Source of the DNA: Anaeromyxobacteraceae bacterium
GTDB lineage: Bacteria > Myxococcota > Myxococcia > Myxococcales > Anaeromyxobacteraceae
Direction: 5' to 3'
DNA: 64,000 bases
Assembly: GCA_047602405.1 (NCBI GenBank)
Contig: JASGHJ010000002.1
Location: forward strand, 3,296,001 to 3,360,000
The notes under the pieces are model-generated. The model was not told the DNA's origin. It did no database searches and saw nothing but the letters and a program-made list of their open reading frames with translations. This document shows positions 20,826 through 36,333 of the stretch, one piece after another. Made by a program: the position numbers and the translations under genes. Numbering within the stretch: position 1 is the first letter of the stretch; every line of letters begins with the position of its first letter.

Positions 20826-22268
20826 CAATGCCGCTCACTTAAGCCCTCGGCGTTTCCGGGGGTAGTTGCTCATCTTGATCTTCACGGCCCTCGGGTAGGA
20901 CCGCAGCCGTCGCTTCGGCAGGATGAAGTGCACGACGTCTTCCCGGAGGCGGCGGAGGTGCTCCGGGATGCGTCCCGCGCTCTCTAGGGAGAGCGTTAGG
21001 AGGGCGTGCTCGATGTACATGAGCGCGTTCTTGAAGCTGACGCGGTCGGGCGTGACGCCGGCGTCCTCGGCCATGCGCTCCATCTCGAGCCGGACGAGGT
21101 TGTACGCGAGGGCGAGGCCCCAGAGCTCCTGGGAGACGCCGCGAGGAGTCCTGCTGCGCGTCGTCTCCTCGCGGTCGAGCATGACAGTCTTGACCTCGTC
21201 GTAGCCGAGCTCGATCTCCCAGCGCTCGTGGTAGAGCGCGACGATCTCGGCCGCCGGGTAAACCTCCGGGTCCGTCATCGACGTCAGCAGGGTCTGAGGC
21301 TTGAAGCCCTTCCGCTGATAGCGGATCGCCCGCATCTCCCAGCGCTCGGGGAGGTCAGGGTTCTCTCGGCGGGCGTCCCGGTGGACGGTCTTCTCGACGA
21401 GCCAGTCGCCGCGCCCGAGCGAGCGGACTACCTTCCAGGCCGTGTCGCTCTTCGCGCGGATGAGCCAGTGCCTTCGATGCCCGTGGCTCGCAATGCCGAT
21501 GAGCAGCGCCGACGAGAGGAAGTTGCGATCCACGATGCACAGCGACTCGTCCGGCACGAGCGGCCACAACTCCCTGGCGAGAGCGATCTCGCTGCCCGAC
21601 TGTGGACCGAAGCGGGCCGCCGCCAGCAGGTGCGAGCGGAGGGCCATCAGCGTGACGAGGCGTGCCATCGGATACGCGCTCTCGCCTCGGGAGCTCACGG
21701 CGTAGCCGAAATGATCGCGGTTCGCTTCGGAGTCCGGGAGACGGACGGTCGTGCCGTCCACGCCGTAGACGGCGAGCCCGCGCCACGCGTGCCGGCGCGC
21801 ACTCTCGTGCGCCCACTTTTCGGCGCTGCGTTCGAACAGCCAGCGGATGGGCTCGCTGCCCAGCCGCTCGCGCGCCTGGGTCACCGAACTCGAGGCCGCG
21901 CGCGGGCGCCGCCCCGGTAGCGCGAGATCGAGCTCCGCGACGATCTCGGCGATGGGCTTGTTACGGTAGATGCCCATCCCGAGCACGAGCCAGACGACCT
22001 GCTCGGCTGGAAGGCGGCGCCGGCGGATGGTGGCCGTCCCGGTGGCCTGAAGGGCTTCCTCGATCCATTCGGGATCGAGGCTCGCCTGGAACCTATCCAG
22101 CAACTCGCCCGAGCTGTCCTCTTGGGCGGAAACGGGGCGACGCGGCATGGGATCGCCCTCCGGGCGATCGCCGCATCATGATCTCCTGGATCGCCGCGGC
22201 AACTCTGCTGCCCCGGCCTCCAAAATCCCCATCGGTCTCGATCGGTTGGCGCTAACCGATCGGCATTG
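20826..22268 (-). mobile_element. Complete IS4-family insertion sequence (1443 bp)
   Basis: Terminal IRs CAATGCCGCTCACTTA / CAATGCCGATCGGTTA (13/16); 10-bp target duplication CGCCTAGGCC at 20816-20825 and 22269-22278. Confidence 0.95.
20835..22148 (-). CDS. IS4-family DDE transposase
   Basis: RRRRLPAEQVVWLV, VDGTT, DRNF and LYHERWEIE (YREK-like) motifs. Confidence 0.95.
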   Translation of the reverse strand: MPRRPVSAQEDSSGELLDRFQASLDPEWIEEALQATGTATIRRRRLPAEQVVWLVLGMGIYRNKPIAEIVAELDLALPGRRPRAASSSVTQARERLGSEPIRWLFERSAEKWAHESARRHAWRGLAVYGVDGTTVRLPDSEANRDHFGYAVSSRGESAYPMARLVTLMALRSHLLAAARFGPQSGSEIALARELWPLVPDESLCIVDRNFLSSALLIGIASHGHRRHWLIRAKSDTAWKVVRSLGRGDWLVEKTVHRDARRENPDLPERWEMRAIRYQRKGFKPQTLLTSMTDPEVYPAAEIVALYHERWEIELGYDEVKTVMLDREETTRSRTPRGVSQELWGLALAYNLVRLEMERMAEDAGVTPDRVSFKNALMYIEHALLTLSLESAGRIPEHLRRLREDVVHFILPKRRLRSYPRAVKIKMSNYPRKRRGLK

Positions 22269-25701: not shown

Positions 25702-26604
25702 GTGACCGAAGCCGCCCCCGCCTCCACCGTCCAGGCCCGGCCCCAGAGCTCCCCGCTCCAGGTCGCGCGCGACCTCCTCGCGCTCGCGAAGCCGCGGCTC
25801 TCCGGCCTCGTGATGATCACGAGCGCGGGGGGCCTCGCCCTCGCGCCGGGGAAGATCTCGACCGCGCGCGCGCTCGTGACCATCCTCGGCACCGCCGCCG
25901 TGGTCGGCGCCGCGAACGCGCTCAACTGCTTCATCGAGCGGGACATCGACGCCCGCATGCGCCGCACCCGCGACCGCCCGCTGCCCGCGGGCCGGGTGGA
26001 CCCCTTCACCGCGCTCGCGCTCGGGCTCATGGTGCCGGCCTTCGCGCTCCCGGTGCTCGCGTTCTCGGCGAACGCGCTCACCGCGTTCCTCGCGTTCTTC
26101 GCCCTCGTCCTCTACGTCGCCGTCTACACGCCCATGAAGCAGCGCTCGACCGCCGCGCTCCTCGTCGGCGCGGTCCCGGGCGCCATCCCGCCGCTCCTCG
26201 GCTGGACGGCGGTCACCGGCGCGATGGACCCGGGCGGCCTCGCGCTCTTCGCGCTCCTCTTCGCGTGGCAGGTGCCGCACTTCCTCGCGGTCTCGCTCTA
26301 CCTGCGCGAGGACTACGCCCGCGGCGGCCTCCGCGTCTTCTCCATCGTGCACGGCGAGCGGATGACCCGCATCGCCATCGCCGCCTCCGCGCTCGTGCTC
26401 GTGCCCATCTCGCTCGGGCCGGTCGCGCTCGGCTTCGCGGGCGGCGCCTACGCGGCCGTCGCGGTCGTCGCCGGCACGGCGCTCGTGGGCCTCGCGGTGG
26501 CGGGCCTCGGCAAGGAGGGCGGCCGCTGGGCACGCACCTTCTTCTTCGGCACGCTCATCCACCTCACCGTGCTGTTCGCGGTCCTCGTCTTCACGCGCCC
26601 GTGA
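25702..26604 (+). CDS. cyoE: Protoheme IX farnesyltransferase (heme o synthase)
   Basis: ERDIDARMRRTRDRPLP, YTPMK, GAVPGAIPP and WQVPHF motifs. Confidence 0.93.
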   Translation: MTEAAPASTVQARPQSSPLQVARDLLALAKPRLSGLVMITSAGGLALAPGKISTARALVTILGTAAVVGAANALNCFIERDIDARMRRTRDRPLPAGRVDPFTALALGLMVPAFALPVLAFSANALTAFLAFFALVLYVAVYTPMKQRSTAALLVGAVPGAIPPLLGWTAVTGAMDPGGLALFALLFAWQVPHFLAVSLYLREDYARGGLRVFSIVHGERMTRIAIAASALVLVPISLGPVALGFAGGAYAAVAVVAGTALVGLAVAGLGKEGGRWARTFFFGTLIHLTVLFAVLVFTRP

Positions 26605-27041
26605 CCGCCCTCGGCGAGACCCTCCCCTCCGTCAACGCGGCCCTCAACCTCGCCGCGTTCGTGCTCCTCGTCCTCGCCTGGCGGGCCATCCGGGCAGGCG
26701 ACCGCGCGCGGCACCGCGCGCTCGTGCTCTCCGCGCTCGGGTGCTCGGCGCTCTTCCTCGTCGGCTACCTGACCCGCGTCGCGCTCACCGGCACGCACCG
26801 GTTCCCGGTCGAGGGGGGCCTGAAGACCCTCTACCTCGCGATCCTCGCGAGCCACACGGTGCTCGCCGTCGTGTGCCTGCCCCTCGTGCTCCGCGCGCTC
26901 TTCCTCGGCTGGCACGAGCGCTTCGCCGAGCACCGCCGCATCGCCCGCTGGACCGCGCCGATCTGGGCGTATGTGTCCGTGACCGGCGTCGCGGTGTACG
27001 TGCTGCTGTACCGGGTCGCACCGGCGGTCGCGGGGCAGTAG
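26601..27041 (+). CDS. DUF420 membrane protein
   Basis: LP.VNA.LN, YL.ILASH and HRRIARWT.PIW.YVSVTGV motifs; coupled to cyoE. Confidence 0.9.
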   Translation: MTALGETLPSVNAALNLAAFVLLVLAWRAIRAGDRARHRALVLSALGCSALFLVGYLTRVALTGTHRFPVEGGLKTLYLAILASHTVLAVVCLPLVLRALFLGWHERFAEHRRIARWTAPIWAYVSVTGVAVYVLLYRVAPAVAGQ

Positions 27042-27060
27042 TACCTCCCCGCCCCTCCTG

Positions 27061-27317
27061 GTGACGTTGCCGCGGGCCGCCTCGCGGGGTCTCTCCGTCC
27101 TCGGGCGCCAAGGCAACGTCCCGCCGCGGAGGGGATCCTGGAGACGGTACGGAGCTGGTGGAGACCCGCGGCGCGTCCACGCGTGCCAGCCGAGTGAGAC
27201 GTCGCGATCGGCGTGAAGTGCCCGGCTCGGCTGTCACGCTCCGCGCAGATCGCGGCTCCGATCTTGGGCGGGCCAGCCGGGCGCCCTGCGGGGCGGAGAG
27301 ACCCCGCGAGGCGGCTC
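27061..27317 (+). ncRNA. Structured ~255-nt element, copy A (candidate ncRNA or MITE/REPIN-like unit)
   Basis: Perfect 22-bp arms at 27076-27097 / 27294-27315; folds as a long imperfect hairpin; homologous to copy B. Confidence 0.55.
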
Positions 27318-27469
27318 GAGGAGTGGCAGACGTGGCGAGCACGGTGATGCTCGCGCCTTGAGTCCTGCGCGGATGGCATCATCCGGAGCGCACCACAGCG
27401 GTGCAGGCTCACCTCCGCGACCCCGCTGGTCGTCCGCGGACGCGGGCGTCTCCATCTCTGCACCGACCC

Positions 27470-27727
27470 GCGGCCGGATCGCGGGGGCCCTCCGCCCGGA
27501 GGGCCCTCGGCTGGCCCGCCCAACGACGGAGCCGCGATCTGCGCGGAGCGTGACAGGCGAAACGACGTGCCCTCACCTCCACGCCGACGCCCCGCTCGCC
27601 TGGCACGCGTGGACGCGCCGCGGGTCTCCACTCGCGGAGACGACTCCAGCTTCCCTGACGCGGCGGGCCTTTGCCCTAGGGCCCGAGGACGGAGGGCCCC
27701 CGCGAGGCGGCCCCACGGCACCATCAC
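27470..27727 (-). ncRNA. Structured ~255-nt element, copy B (inverted relative to A)
   Basis: Perfect 16-bp arms at 27479-27494 / 27690-27705; 32-nt and 30-nt blocks identical to copy A; compensatory stem changes. Confidence 0.55.
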
Positions 27728-27751
27728 GGCCACCGAGCGCGCGGACCCCAC

Positions 27752-27791
27752 AAAAACAAACCGCCGGGACGCCCCATGCGTCCCGGCGGTT
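27752..27791 (-). terminator. Rho-independent terminator of the small minus-strand gene
   Basis: 14-bp stem aaccgccgggacgc / gcgtcccggcggtt followed by TTTGTTTTT on the minus strand. Confidence 0.8.
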
Positions 27792-27842
27792 GCCACGTCC
27801 GGCCCCTGGATTCCGGGCGAGGCGAACTCGTCGAAGCTCCGG

Positions 27843-27980
27843 CTAGTGCAGGCGGCTCACGTGCGAGACGGCGAGGGTCACGAGGCCGACGAGCCAGGCC
27901 AGCGCCATCAGCCCGCGCGCGGGCAGCACGTCGACCAGCACCAGCATCCCGTCCCCGACCTTCGAACCCTGCTTCGCCAT
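27843..27980 (-). CDS. Small 45-aa single-TM protein
   Basis: GGAGG RBS; MAKQGSKVGDGMLVLVDVLPARGLMALAWLVGLVTLAVSHVSRLH; has its own promoter and terminator. Confidence 0.7.
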   Translation of the reverse strand: MAKQGSKVGDGMLVLVDVLPARGLMALAWLVGLVTLAVSHVSRLH

Positions 27981-28013
27981 GACCGCGTGACCTCCGTGCT
28001 TCGTGATGGTCGG

Positions 28014-28177
28014 AGTATGCCCGGGCTCGCGTCGACTCTCCGTGACGACCCTCACACACAGTCGGAATCCGTTGGGCTCCCTCCCCCGTGGTGTGGGAGT
28101 GACCGCGCGCACAGCTGCGGTGCGCCGGCGTGACGCCGCTCACGCGAAACGGTGCCGTCCCTGTGACGCGGCTCACG
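28014..28177. promoter_or_regulatory. Cluster of CRP/FNR-family GTGA-N6-TCAC boxes plus a minus-strand -10 (CATACT, 28014-28019)
   Basis: Boxes at 28041-28056, 28098-28113 (degenerate), 28129-28144 and 28162-28177. Confidence 0.65.
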
Positions 28178-28197
28178 CGGCGCGGTACCATCCGGGC

Positions 28198-28881
28198 ATG
28201 CGCTCCGGAAAGGCCGCTTCGGCGCTCCTCCTCACCGGCCTCGCGGCCTGCGGGGGCGGTGTCGCCCGCGTCGAGCTCGACCCCCCGTCGCTCCGCCTCG
28301 GCGTGCGCGGGCAGGTCGCGAAGGTCCACGCCTCGCCCCGCGACAAGAACGGCAAGTCGCTGCCCGCCTCCATCTGCGCGTGGCGCTCGTCCGACGAGAA
28401 GGTCGCGACGGTGCGCGGGGCGAACGACGCGGAGATCACGGCGGCCGGACCGGGGGAGGCCACCGTCACCTGCGCGATCGGCGACGCGAAGGGCGAGGTG
28501 ACGGTGCTCGTGCGGGTGGTGTCGAAGGTGACGGCGAGCCCGGCGCGGGTGGAGCTGCAGGTGCTCGACGAGCCGAAGGCGTTCCCGGTCGTGGTGGAGG
28601 CGTTCGACGACGCCGGGGCGCGGGTGGTCGGCCGGCACGCCACCTCGCACTGCGCGAGCGAGGACGTGTGCCGCGGCGACAGCGTGCCCCAGCTCTGGCC
28701 GGTGGGCGCGGGCGACACGACCGCGTTCATCCAGGTCGAGGGCGCCCGCTCCGAGCCGATCGCGGTGCACGTCGTGGACGCGCGCTCCGCCGCGGCGAAG
28801 CCGAAGCGCGTGACCGGCAACCCGATGGAGGCTTACGAGAAGGAGTACCAGCGCCGCCTGAAGGAGCAGCAGAAGCGCTGA
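28198..28881 (+). CDS. Ig-like (Big_2) domain lipoprotein
   Basis: Lipobox LAAC; WRSSDEKVATV...ITAAGPGEATVT. Confidence 0.85.
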   Translation: MRSGKAASALLLTGLAACGGGVARVELDPPSLRLGVRGQVAKVHASPRDKNGKSLPASICAWRSSDEKVATVRGANDAEITAAGPGEATVTCAIGDAKGEVTVLVRVVSKVTASPARVELQVLDEPKAFPVVVEAFDDAGARVVGRHATSHCASEDVCRGDSVPQLWPVGAGDTTAFIQVEGARSEPIAVHVVDARSAAAKPKRVTGNPMEAYEKEYQRRLKEQQKR

Positions 28882-34387: not shown

Positions 34388-36333
34388 CTCACAGTCAGAC
34401 CCGCTCGCTGCGCCTCCTCCCGAACTGGCCGTCCTTCCAGACGACGCCGTTCACGCGGAACTCGACGGCGTCGGGGAAGATGCCGGTGATGGTGGCGAAG
34501 CCCTCGTGGACCACGACGAGGTGGTGGTAGGCGCAGAGCGGCATGCGGTTCCAGTCGTCCTCGGAGCCGCCCCGGCTGCGAAACTCGATGTGGTGGCCCT
34601 GGCAGCTCCGGCGGCTGCACCCCGGGAACTGACAGCGCCGGTACTTCGCGCGCTGCTTCTGGGAGACGGTCTTCGGCTTCGTGCGCTCGTTGCACCAGGC
34701 CTGGATGAAGTGGCGGGCGAGCTCGCCGAGGAAGGCGCCGTCGAGGCGGGGCTCGGCGGGCGGCTTCGGCGTTGCCTCGTCTTTCCCGTGCTTTCCGTCG
34801 TGCTCGCATCCATCCACGCAGGGGGCTGACTCCTCCGCGGGGCGCTCCTCCGGCACCCGCCTCATCAGCGACACCTGGAACGCCTGCTCGAGCAGCACCG
34901 CGACGCTCCGCGGCACCCGGGCCTCGAAGAACTTCAGCGCAGACATCTGCGCGTCGGCCTTCGCCTGCACGACCTCCCTCAGCTCCACCACGGTCAGCTT
35001 CTCGGCCCGCTGCGCCATCTGGAGGAGGTCGACCTGGGGCACCTCCTTCAGGAGGAGGAGCTTCGAGTAGGTGAGCCCCATCTCCTTCGCGATCCGGAGC
35101 TCCGGCTTCTCCCAGAGGTGCTTCTCGAGCGCGGCGCGGGTCTCGATGGTGCGGGCCGGGACCCCGAGGCGCTCGGTCGCGTAGTGCCGGAAGTCCACGA
35201 ACCCCGCCTCGCGGTGGGTGTGCGTGCCCTTCACGACGGCCGAGCACCACCCCATGAAGTCGTCCCAGGCCTTGAGCTCGGAGGCGATGCCGAGGCCCGT
35301 CGCCATGAGCTCGTCGTCCGTGGCGAGGGCGTTCGGATCCACGTCGAGGGCCGCGACGGCGTGGACCGGGTCGAGGACCTCCCAGTGGGAGGTCTCGTCC
35401 TCGAGCTTCGCCTCCGCGGCGTCGCGCTTCGTCTGGACGTCGAGCGGGTGGAGCCGCCGCTCCACGGCGCGCTCCGCCTCGGCGGCGACCGACTCGTCTC
35501 CCGGGTGCTCCGACAGGTACTCCTGCGCGAGCGCCTCGAGCTGCACGTGCCGGTGCGAGCTCTCGACGAGCTCGCCCGCGAGGGCCATGGCGCTGCGGAG
35601 ATCCGCGTGGTCCTCGTCGGAGATCGGCACGCGCAGCCGGACCCACGGCTCCTCGTCCGCCTCCGCCTCCTCTGCGGCCGCATCCGGCCCCGGGAGCGCC
35701 TTCCGCTCCTTCAGGGCCTCCTTCACGAGCTGCTTCAGCTTCCGCACCGGCTGGACCTTCGCCTCCTCCACCCAGCGCTCCTCGTCGTCGCCGGCCGCGA
35801 CCGGCAGGACCGCGAGCGCCGCCGACGGGGTCACGAGCCCCTCGTACGCAGCGGCCCTCAGCAAGGGCCGCTCCCGGAGCGCCTTCGCGAGCTGCGCCGC
35901 CACCTGCGCCGCGCGCCGGCGGACGCCGAAGAGGTTCTCGGTGAGGTCGCCGAGGTTCGAGAACCCCTGCCGGGCGAGGCGGTCACCCTCCGTGAATGTG
36001 GCGAAGATCGCGCCGAGGCTGAGCTCGAGCGCGCTGCGCATGCAGGCGGCCTGCGCGAGCGCGCGCTCGAACTTCTCCGGGCCGCCCTCGCCGCGGAGGA
36101 CCAGCTCTCGAAGCTCGAGCATCGTGAAAGACGGGTACTCCCAGCGCGGCGCGTGCAGGTCCCAGCGCTCGCGGAGCGGATCCCTGCGGGCGGCGTCGTT
36201 CGCGGCGGCTACGGTCGCGGCCGCGCCCGTCGGCTCGGCACCCGGAGTGAATTCCGGGAGCGCCGCCGCGACGAGCTCGCTGGCCGTGCACGCGTCCATG
36301 CCCGCGATCCTGCCACCCCGGTCTGACGGTGAG
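34388..36333 (-). mobile_element. Candidate HNH/DUF222-like mobile element bounded by 14-bp inverted repeats
   Basis: CTCACAGTCAGACC (34388-34401) versus GGTCTGACGGTGAG (36320-36333), 13/14; deleted copy at 38216-38301; no target duplication seen. Confidence 0.5.
34395..36299 (-). CDS. HNH endonuclease with two DUF222-like helical modules
   Basis: C-terminal CQFPGC..HHI.FRSRGG....N...LCAYHH..VH; repeated GF......E.LGV..R......L...L...P.LR.A...G module. Confidence 0.88.
   Translation of the reverse strand: MDACTASELVAAALPEFTPGAEPTGAAATVAAANDAARRDPLRERWDLHAPRWEYPSFTMLELRELVLRGEGGPEKFERALAQAACMRSALELSLGAIFATFTEGDRLARQGFSNLGDLTENLFGVRRRAAQVAAQLAKALRERPLLRAAAYEGLVTPSAALAVLPVAAGDDEERWVEEAKVQPVRKLKQLVKEALKERKALPGPDAAAEEAEADEEPWVRLRVPISDEDHADLRSAMALAGELVESSHRHVQLEALAQEYLSEHPGDESVAAEAERAVERRLHPLDVQTKRDAAEAKLEDETSHWEVLDPVHAVAALDVDPNALATDDELMATGLGIASELKAWDDFMGWCSAVVKGTHTHREAGFVDFRHYATERLGVPARTIETRAALEKHLWEKPELRIAKEMGLTYSKLLLLKEVPQVDLLQMAQRAEKLTVVELREVVQAKADAQMSALKFFEARVPRSVAVLLEQAFQVSLMRRVPEERPAEESAPCVDGCEHDGKHGKDEATPKPPAEPRLDGAFLGELARHFIQAWCNERTKPKTVSQKQRAKYRRCQFPGCSRRSCQGHHIEFRSRGGSEDDWNRMPLCAYHHLVVVHEGFATITGIFPDAVEFRVNGVVWKDGQFGRRRSERV

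What the first reader, a model, noticed from the sequence alone, without database searches (positions are those of the whole stretch)
27061..27727. Two inverted ~255-nt copies of a covarying long-hairpin element with a variable apical segment
Seen: copy A (+) and copy B (-) share perfect blocks of 32 nt (27158-27189 / 27600-27631), 30 nt (27231-27260 / 27527-27556) and 16 nt (27264-27279 / 27508-27523), while other parts diverge. Each copy folds on itself, and stem differences are compensatory: GGGGTCTCTCCG/CGGAGAGACCCC vs GGGGGCCCTCCG/CGGAGGGCCCCC; GGGCGCC/GGCGCCC vs GGGCCCT/AGGGCCC; CCGAG/CTCGG vs GCGAG/TTCGC. G-T wobbles favour A on + and B on -. A 41-43-nt apical segment and a ~33-nt 5' bulge are variable. 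There is no credible ORF. Inference: selection acts on single-stranded structure. It could be a structured ncRNA family I do not recognise (constant scaffold with variable loops, possibly guide-like), a REPIN/MITE-type unit, or a retron msr-msd-like repeat whose protein partner lies elsewhere.
Basis: partly seen in the sequence, partly recalled or inferred. Interest (0 to 1): 0.82.

Follow-up and report, generated by a model that had tools for sequence, protein, structure and literature searches.

The report
Giant paired-hairpin mobile repeat family
The two long hairpins are one copy of an undescribed repeat, usually two facing hairpins of about 260-290 bases, that sits between converging genes in a small group of related bacteria; it behaves like an oversized selfish palindromic repeat, and the enzyme that moves it was not found.

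Summary
A and B are two of 20 full arms (15 loci) of a dispersed family in this genome; 14 of the 20 form inward-facing pairs, nearly all between convergent genes. Each arm folds into a strand-specific rod (25 of 58 pairs with compensatory change; G-T:A-C 81:11) around an invariant central stem. Outer and inner stems are shuffled between copies as nested modules. The ~700-bp pair is missing at the orthologous site of the sister genome G010, which has arms at two sites that lack them here, so the family has moved or been lost site by site. It was found only in G000, G010 and sludge contigs of a related strain. No Rfam match; the loops are homologous and match nothing, so they are not guides; no retron RT. 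No arm flanks a Y1, GIY-YIG, RT or integrase gene. A second, unrelated family of the same design (29 arms, parasitised by IS110) shares the genome and range. Best reading: a giant REPIN/BIME-like non-autonomous doublet read as single-stranded DNA by an unidentified protein. Earlier notes of this scan describe look-alike designs on other DNA, not this sequence.

The parts
27042..27745 (.). Whole doublet (two facing arms plus spacer, about 704 bp): the probable mobile unit
   Evidence: G010 aligns to 27041 and resumes at 27746 with 4 bp between
27058..27318 (+). Arm A, short (S) subtype rod
   Evidence: nhmmer family model; fold z -5.3; covariance model 159.5 bits, built partly from this arm
27042..27057 (+). 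Pyrimidine-rich leader of arm A, directly after the DUF420 stop codon; predicted to pair with the tail
   Evidence: leaders 68% C+T across 20 arms
27112..27126 (+). 5' strand of the invariant central stem with its AA bulge (arm A); candidate protein-recognition site (inferred)
   Evidence: invariant columns 62-76; the pattern built on it finds all 20 arms
27127..27165 (+). Asymmetric 5' internal loop, 37-40 nt in all arms, 49% G
27190..27230 (+). Top of the inner stem and variable apical segment (about 25-30 nt longer in the L subtype)
27266..27279 (+). 3' strand of the invariant central stem (arm A)
27319..27469 (.). Two purine-rich tails and variable spacer; at other loci this inner side holds microsatellites, small REPs, IS remnants or a foreign gene
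27470..27730 (-). Arm B, short (S) subtype rod
27731..27745 (-). Leader of arm B
27759..27791 (-). Intrinsic-terminator-like hairpin upstream of arm B; host feature, also present at the empty site in G010
26601..27041 (+). Left flanking host gene, DUF420 (not part of the element)
   Evidence: PF04238
27843..27980 (-). Right flanking small ORF (45 aa, GC3 0.98), convergent with DUF420 (not part of the element)

Best explanation
A clade-restricted, non-autonomous mobile repeat: a giant REPIN/BIME-like doublet. The unit is two non-identical 260-290-nt arms with 5' ends outward, each of which folds into its own rod when its strand is single-stranded. Shown: copy number, pairing, location, strand-specific conserved fold, nested module exchange, site-by-site presence or absence, decay by hairpin deletion. 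Inferred: a protein encoded elsewhere (an HUH/Y1-type or GIY-YIG/Ssn-type single-strand nuclease is my guess, by analogy) recognises the invariant bulged stem of each arm on exposed single-stranded DNA, cuts near the outer ends and lets the pair be copied to new gene-end gaps without target duplication. Only copies that still fold are propagated, which gives the covariation; gene conversion survives when it swaps both strands of a stem; insertions persist only where they break no gene or promoter.
For: 20 full arms and several partial or collapsed ones at 15 loci; 14 of 20 in 7 facing pairs, and 2 more loci keep a collapsed partner. 13 of 15 loci lie between convergent genes by crude gene calls, against 776 of 4015 gaps genome-wide; the 2 exceptions are calling artefacts. 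At 8 of 15 loci searched in G010 no full arm is present; 2 G010 arms sit where G000 has none. Covariation: 95.8% of cells paired, 25 of 58 pairs with two-sided change, 0 of 500 shuffles, slid controls 38-46% paired. G-T:A-C 81:11; the given strand folds better in 20 of 20 arms as RNA and 14 of 20 as DNA. Outer and inner stems have different nearest neighbours and trees, e.g. L034_D outer stem 100% identical to L036_S while D and S inner stems are about 60% alike. The longest shared word across the window junctions is 5 nt, away from the junction. A second family of the same design has cGNAg triloops on the opposite strand (25 such loops in 29 arms), which I recall as a DNA-hairpin signature. 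REPIN definition and compensatory changes: PMC3116915 (passages). HH heterodimers and singletons as dimer remnants: PMC3733652 (passages).
Against: No mobiliser found: no arm beside the 6 Y1 genes or the small GIY-YIG gene of G000 or in 28 further Y1 loci; Y1 genes occur in 27 of 37 congeners, most of which lack the repeat. No common GTRG or CGTC tag at a fixed place (15 and 10 of 20 arms have one somewhere in a 55-nt window, no chance control run). No recent burst: closest copies 92% identical, median 72%. Some 'empty' G010 sites hold remnants (tsf site; a 19-nt piece at the L034 site), and contigs of a related strain carry an arm at the window site, so loss explains part of the pattern. This family shows no DNA-type loop signature (0 cGNAg). 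The covariation controls do not remove relatedness, and the structure was derived from the same alignment.
Confidence: 0.6

Rival explanations
1. Host-selected structured RNA at gene 3' ends (ERIC/YPAL-like): each arm is co-transcribed with its upstream gene and acts as a stability, processing or anti-collision element between convergent transcripts; copies spread by occasional duplication and conversion.
For: Arms are co-oriented with the gene at their 5' side and often start within tens of bases of its stop codon; the given strand wins in 20 of 20 arms with RNA energies but 14 of 20 with DNA energies; copies are old and still fold.
Against: Terminator-like hairpins lie between gene and arm for arm B and for up to 4 of 20 arms by a crude scan; neighbours share no function; G010 does without the element at 8 sites examined; few RNA-type tetraloops (5 GNRA, 0 cUNCGg of 76 loops).
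Confidence: 0.2
2. Decaying palindromes whose covariation comes from template switching and gene conversion, not from selection; spread was a single old burst.
For: Hairpin collapse at short direct repeats is common; template switching perfects quasi-palindromes (recalled); no near-identical copies.
Against: Bulges, the asymmetric loop length (37-40 nt in 20 of 20) and one-strand G-T pairs are kept instead of being perfected; the central stem is invariant while loops drift.
Confidence: 0.09
3. Retron-derived or otherwise reverse-transcribed element: the outer stem, 5' loop and inner hairpin correspond to a1/a2, msr and msd, dispersed by retroposition.
For: The anatomy resembles a retron RNA as I recall it, with an invariant G right after the central stem; tandem duplications of 5' ends at several loci; msDNA-like repeats were reported in the myxobacterium Nannocystis (two titles seen only in the reference list of PMC6868368).
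Against: No retron RT in G000 (8 RT hits, group II intron-type by my reading); the paired, inverted arrangement is not expected from cDNA insertion; no Rfam hit.
Confidence: 0.07
4. Trans-acting guide or bridge RNAs with a constant scaffold and programmable loops.
For: Constant scaffold with variable internal and apical loops; two IS110 families are in the genome.
Against: Loops are homologous and diverge by point change; longest exact matches to the genome 15.9 and 16.4 nt against 15.0 and 15.4 for shuffles (one shuffle per loop); own flanks 7.0 and 7.5 nt against 7.0 and 7.2 for other loci; no excess match to 5 mobile elements; no match among phages or plasmids. IS110 inserts into the sister family as a parasite.
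Confidence: 0.04

Closest known systems
REPINs / REP HH dimers and BIMEs (RAYT-associated; PMC3116915, PMC3733652, PMC6006769, passages read)
   Same: Intergenic, inverted doublet as unit, 5' ends outward, heterodimers, singletons as remnants, compensatory changes, targeted by IS110-family elements (the sister family).
   Different: REPs are 20-40 bp and the doublet folds into one ~100-nt hairpin; here each arm is its own 260-290-nt rod. No fixed GTRG tag, no RAYT gene flanked by the repeat, only about 20 copies.
Ssn (GIY-YIG) single-strand nucleases with SRM/CGTC repeats (PMC11893778, passages read)
   Same: Strand-specific ssDNA hairpin repeats; the genome has such a gene with its own small repeats, which abut 4 loci of this family in G000 and 1 in G010.
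   Different: SRMs are 20-50 nt and flank the ssn gene; these arms do not flank it and share no detected sequence with those repeats.
ERIC/IRU, YPAL, Bcr1 long stem-loop repeat families (PMC2267715, passages read)
   Same: Dispersed 100-200-nt imperfect palindromes with a conserved fold and no linked transposase.
   Different: Longer arms, obligate-looking inverted heterodimer, nested module exchange; no target duplication seen.
Integron attC sites (recalled, not read)
   Same: Strand-specific imperfect hairpin with conserved unpaired bases, purine-rich loops, a foreign gene between an arm and a downstream half arm at one locus (L029).
   Different: No integron integrase over the cut-off in G000 or G010, no cassette arrays, inverted rather than direct orientation.

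Membership tests
REPIN/BIME (RAYT) | Inverted doublet in extragenic space as the unit | tested here: met
   14 of 20 arms in facing pairs; whole pair absent in G010
REPIN/BIME (RAYT) | Short (20-40 bp) REP palindromes with a GTRG tag at the stem foot | tested here: not met
   Arms 261-290 nt; no invariant tag in the alignment
REPIN/BIME (RAYT) | Cognate RAYT gene flanked by the repeat | tested here: not met
   0 of 6 Y1 loci in G000 and 0 of 28 other Y1 loci carry an arm
REPIN/BIME (RAYT) | Cleavage or excision by the transposase | not testable with these tools
   Needs biochemistry or deep reads of the strain
Ssn/SRM (CGTC repeats) | Repeat flanks a small GIY-YIG gene | tested here: not met
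   The gene at C1:1892872 is flanked by a different, small repeat
MITE (DDE-type) | Short terminal inverted repeats like an IS end and target duplication | tested here: not met
   No duplication at the window junctions; no 14-mer cluster shared with any multi-copy element
Retron msr-msd | Adjacent retron RT gene | tested here: not met
Retron msr-msd | Branched msDNA product | not testable with these tools
   Needs nucleic-acid extraction
Bridge/guide RNA | Loops complementary to target or donor DNA | tested here: not met
Integron attC | Integron integrase and direct-repeat cassette arrays | tested here: not met
   No TIGR02249 match over the cut-off in 5 of 5 genomes; control genomes also had none over the cut-off
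Any Rfam family | Covariance-model match | tested here: not met
   Window at gathering score: only a tRNA; 5 loci at E up to 0.5: one unrelated weak hit outside the arms
Structured ncRNA / 3' UTR element | Discrete or read-through transcript | not testable with these tools
   No RNA holder listed

The most novel reading that the evidence does not exclude
A class of gene-less mobile elements built from two long single-strand rods and moved by an enzyme outside the known RAYT, Ssn and IntI sets, which also exchanges the inner domain of folded rods at the invariant bulged stem. Two sequence-unrelated families of this design in one genome, and similar designs noted in other phyla by this scan, would then be members of one undescribed system.
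Probability: 0.25. Interest if true: 0.72.

Novelty: new variant of a known kind. Interest (0 to 1): 0.42.

Why it matters
If the best reading holds, REP-like selfish repeats can be ten times longer than described and can persist with no linked transposase gene, and two independent families in one closed-quality genome give a compact test case for finding the unknown single-strand DNA processing protein. It also warns that strong covariation in dispersed paralogues does not by itself show a non-coding RNA.

Tried and rejected
Rfam: no hit. Wider range: pattern in 2 of 37 genus genomes counting G000; blastn with arm A gave clear hits only in G010 among 40 relatives, 5 others had short hits at E 1e-5 to 3e-4 that the covariance model did not support; D-type arm in 92 family genomes: G000, G010 and one 46-nt hit not followed up; all-GTDB pattern scan 8 hits, 1 real, adding no new arm sequence; viral 0; metagenome 21 hits, 0 real; phages and plasmids none. 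These exact-pattern and blastn searches would miss diverged relatives, and the covariance-model search of whole genomes gave no answer, so the range is a lower bound. Partner genes: Pfam on 41 of 122 ORFs picked around the loci showed only unrelated host genes; DUF559 0; Y2 transposase 0 of 5 but the control was silent too; the cargo gene at L029 has one weak relative in 300 class genomes and no NCBIfam or Pfam family. Coding role rejected: arm lengths vary without frame. No sigma-70-like promoter in 26900-28200. No RNA holder listed. Literature searches for this repeat in the genus found nothing relevant; other searches were for comparison. No supplements were read; lists of repeat families in the supplements of PMC3733652, PMC2267715 or PMC11893778 could bear on the claim that the family is undescribed. 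I considered hammerhead-like words in the sister family and dropped the idea, as they are paired in the rod and Rfam gave no hit.

Full report
Observation. The three perfect blocks and all stem words are exactly as stated. A (27058-27318, +) and B (27470-27730, -) are 79% identical, and each folds better than all 200 shuffles (z -5.3 and -4.85). ORFs over the element lack the GC3 bias of real genes. Rfam has nothing here.

A dispersed family. The genome (G000, 6.16 Mb, 74% G+C) holds 20 full arms and 2 half arms by nhmmer, and collapsed arms at three places: 15 loci in all. Fourteen arms form 7 facing pairs with 5' ends outward; six pairs have 88-151 nt between the arms and one holds a low-GC3 276-aa ORF followed by a diverged half arm. 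Two more loci keep a collapsed partner; five full arms are single, and three of them have foreign-looking DNA on the inner side. There are three subtypes (8 short, 9 long, 3 divergent); pairs are usually mixed, the window pair is short plus short. Crude gene calls put 13 of 15 loci between convergent genes (background 776 of 4015), and the two exceptions are calling artefacts. Neighbouring genes share no function (41 ORFs scanned). The only genus label I have is the title of the named record L077, which carries an arm and reads Anaeromyxobacter.

Structure. On 22 arms (20 from G000, 2 from G010) RNAalifold gives one rod of 58 pairs: 95.8% of cells paired, 25 pairs with two-sided change, 0 of 500 shuffles as high, slid controls 38-46% paired. 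The structure came from the same alignment and the copies are related, so this is strong but not a probability. G-T pairs outnumber A-C 81 to 11; the given strand folds better in 20 of 20 arms with RNA and 14 of 20 with DNA energies. The central stem with an AA bulge is nearly invariant (94-97% identity within subtypes on the 5' side) while the 5' loop and apex drift (65-76% and 56-70%). Leaders are pyrimidine-rich and tails 52% G and are predicted to extend the rod to about 310-330 nt. Outer and inner stems have different histories: distances correlate 0.58 between the two outer strands, 0.93 between the two inner strands, but about 0.2 between outer and inner (complementarity alone gives the first two), and L034_D has the outer stem of L036_S with a divergent inner stem. 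No two arms exceed 92% identity (median 72%).

Mobility. G010 is about 92-95% identical in genes. At the window site it has 4 bp in place of 27042-27745. Of 15 loci I searched 8 in G010; none holds a full arm (at L038 only the left flank was matched). G010 has arms at two sites where G000 has none. Against a simple 'recent insertion' story: both genomes have remnants at the tsf site, the L034 site of G010 keeps a 19-nt piece, and sludge contigs of a related strain (runs X2, X3) show arms with a different apex at the window site. So gain in the clade is shown by absence in outgroups (35 of 36 other congeners lack the pattern), but many copies are old and loss is frequent. No target duplication was seen.

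Range. See Tried and rejected: only G000, G010 and the sludge contigs; a lower bound, since the covariance-model search of whole genomes gave no answer.

Partner. No arm lies beside any of 6 Y1 (RAYT-like) genes, the small GIY-YIG gene or the multi-copy elements of G000, or in 28 further Y1 loci of the genus. The GIY-YIG gene has its own small CGTC-type repeat, as described for Ssn nucleases (PMC11893778, passages). All 8 RT hits are group II intron-type by my reading. No integron integrase passes the cut-off. The loops match neither genome, flanks nor mobile elements beyond controls.

A second family. A scan for long palindromes showed an unrelated family, F2: 29 full arms of about 320 nt in 14 pairs and 1 single, plus a fused pair; no cross-match with the first family. 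It has the same design: inward-facing mixed rods, purine-rich tails, 11 of 16 loci convergent by crude calls, G-T:A-C 178:19, and clear hits only in G000 and G010 among 92 family genomes (two 35-nt hits elsewhere; the one inspected is in a coding region). Four pairs carry one IS110-family element with subterminal inverted repeats inside a tail, in either orientation to the pair, so it is a parasite of the repeat, as known for IS110 elements and REPs (title in the reference list of PMC11208160; passages). F2 tips read cGNAg on the opposite strand (25 loops in 29 arms), a DNA-hairpin signature as I recall; the family under study has no such loops.

Mechanism. Best reading (0.6): a non-autonomous doublet recognised as folded single-stranded DNA by a protein in trans; the enzyme and the cut sites are inferred, not shown. 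Rivals: host-selected 3' RNA element (0.2; but a terminator-like hairpin precedes arm B), neutral palindrome decay (0.09), retron-derived (0.07), guide RNA (0.04).

Comparison. It works like a REPIN or BIME (PMC3116915, PMC3733652, PMC6006769; passages only) but fails membership on size, tag and linked RAYT. It resembles ERIC/YPAL-type long stem-loop families (PMC2267715, passages) in lacking a linked enzyme. Two searches for such repeats in this genus returned nothing relevant. Earlier notes of this scan hold no look-alike sequence but describe similar designs in other phyla; I did not test them.

Verdict. Real, undescribed as far as searched, a new variant of a known kind; interest 0.42. The bold reading, an undescribed class of giant rod doublets with its own enzyme, I put at 0.25.

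Noticed in passing
G000 C2:2411529-2412228 (L150) and 15 other loci; one at C2:3293135-3293936, just upstream of the window: Second, sequence-unrelated family (F2) of paired ~320-nt rods with the same design and range; cGNAg tips on the opposite strand.
   Followed up: partly
G000 C2:480287-482470, 980330-982513, 1993572-1995773, 2508094-2510277: All four full copies seen of one IS1111-type IS110 element sit in the purine-rich tail of F2 arms; its bridge RNA should be programmed for that tail (inferred).
   Followed up: partly
window 34395-36299 (-): 634-aa ORF with an HNH-like end and no Pfam or NCBIfam family; about 11 copies of a ~2-kb unit in the genome, next to small CGTC-type repeats.
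   Followed up: partly
L066 (G000 C1:1892872): Small GIY-YIG (Ssn-like) gene flanked by several copies of a ~50-nt repeat present at about 50 places, with a 157-bp-period array at C2:3676054-3677027.
   Followed up: partly
G000 C2:3644851-3645871, C2:7578-8634, C1:316531-317545, C1:2167018-2168089: Four units with two ~135-nt palindromes in inverted orientation; the one examined holds four-helix-bundle (TIGR02436) coding sequence and microsatellite flanks.
   Followed up: no
L029:4455-5282 (-): Low-GC3 orphan ORF between a full arm and a diverged half arm, like a captured cassette; one weak relative in 300 genomes.
   Followed up: partly
window 20835-22148 (-): IS4-family transposase, 5 copies in the genome.
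   Followed up: no
L068-L075: Seven identical group II intron-type elements and one internally deleted copy.
   Followed up: no
L003-L005: A RAYT-like Y1 gene that occurs as a 4-copy ~1.24-kb unit with its own palindromic ends, i.e. apparently still mobile.
   Followed up: no
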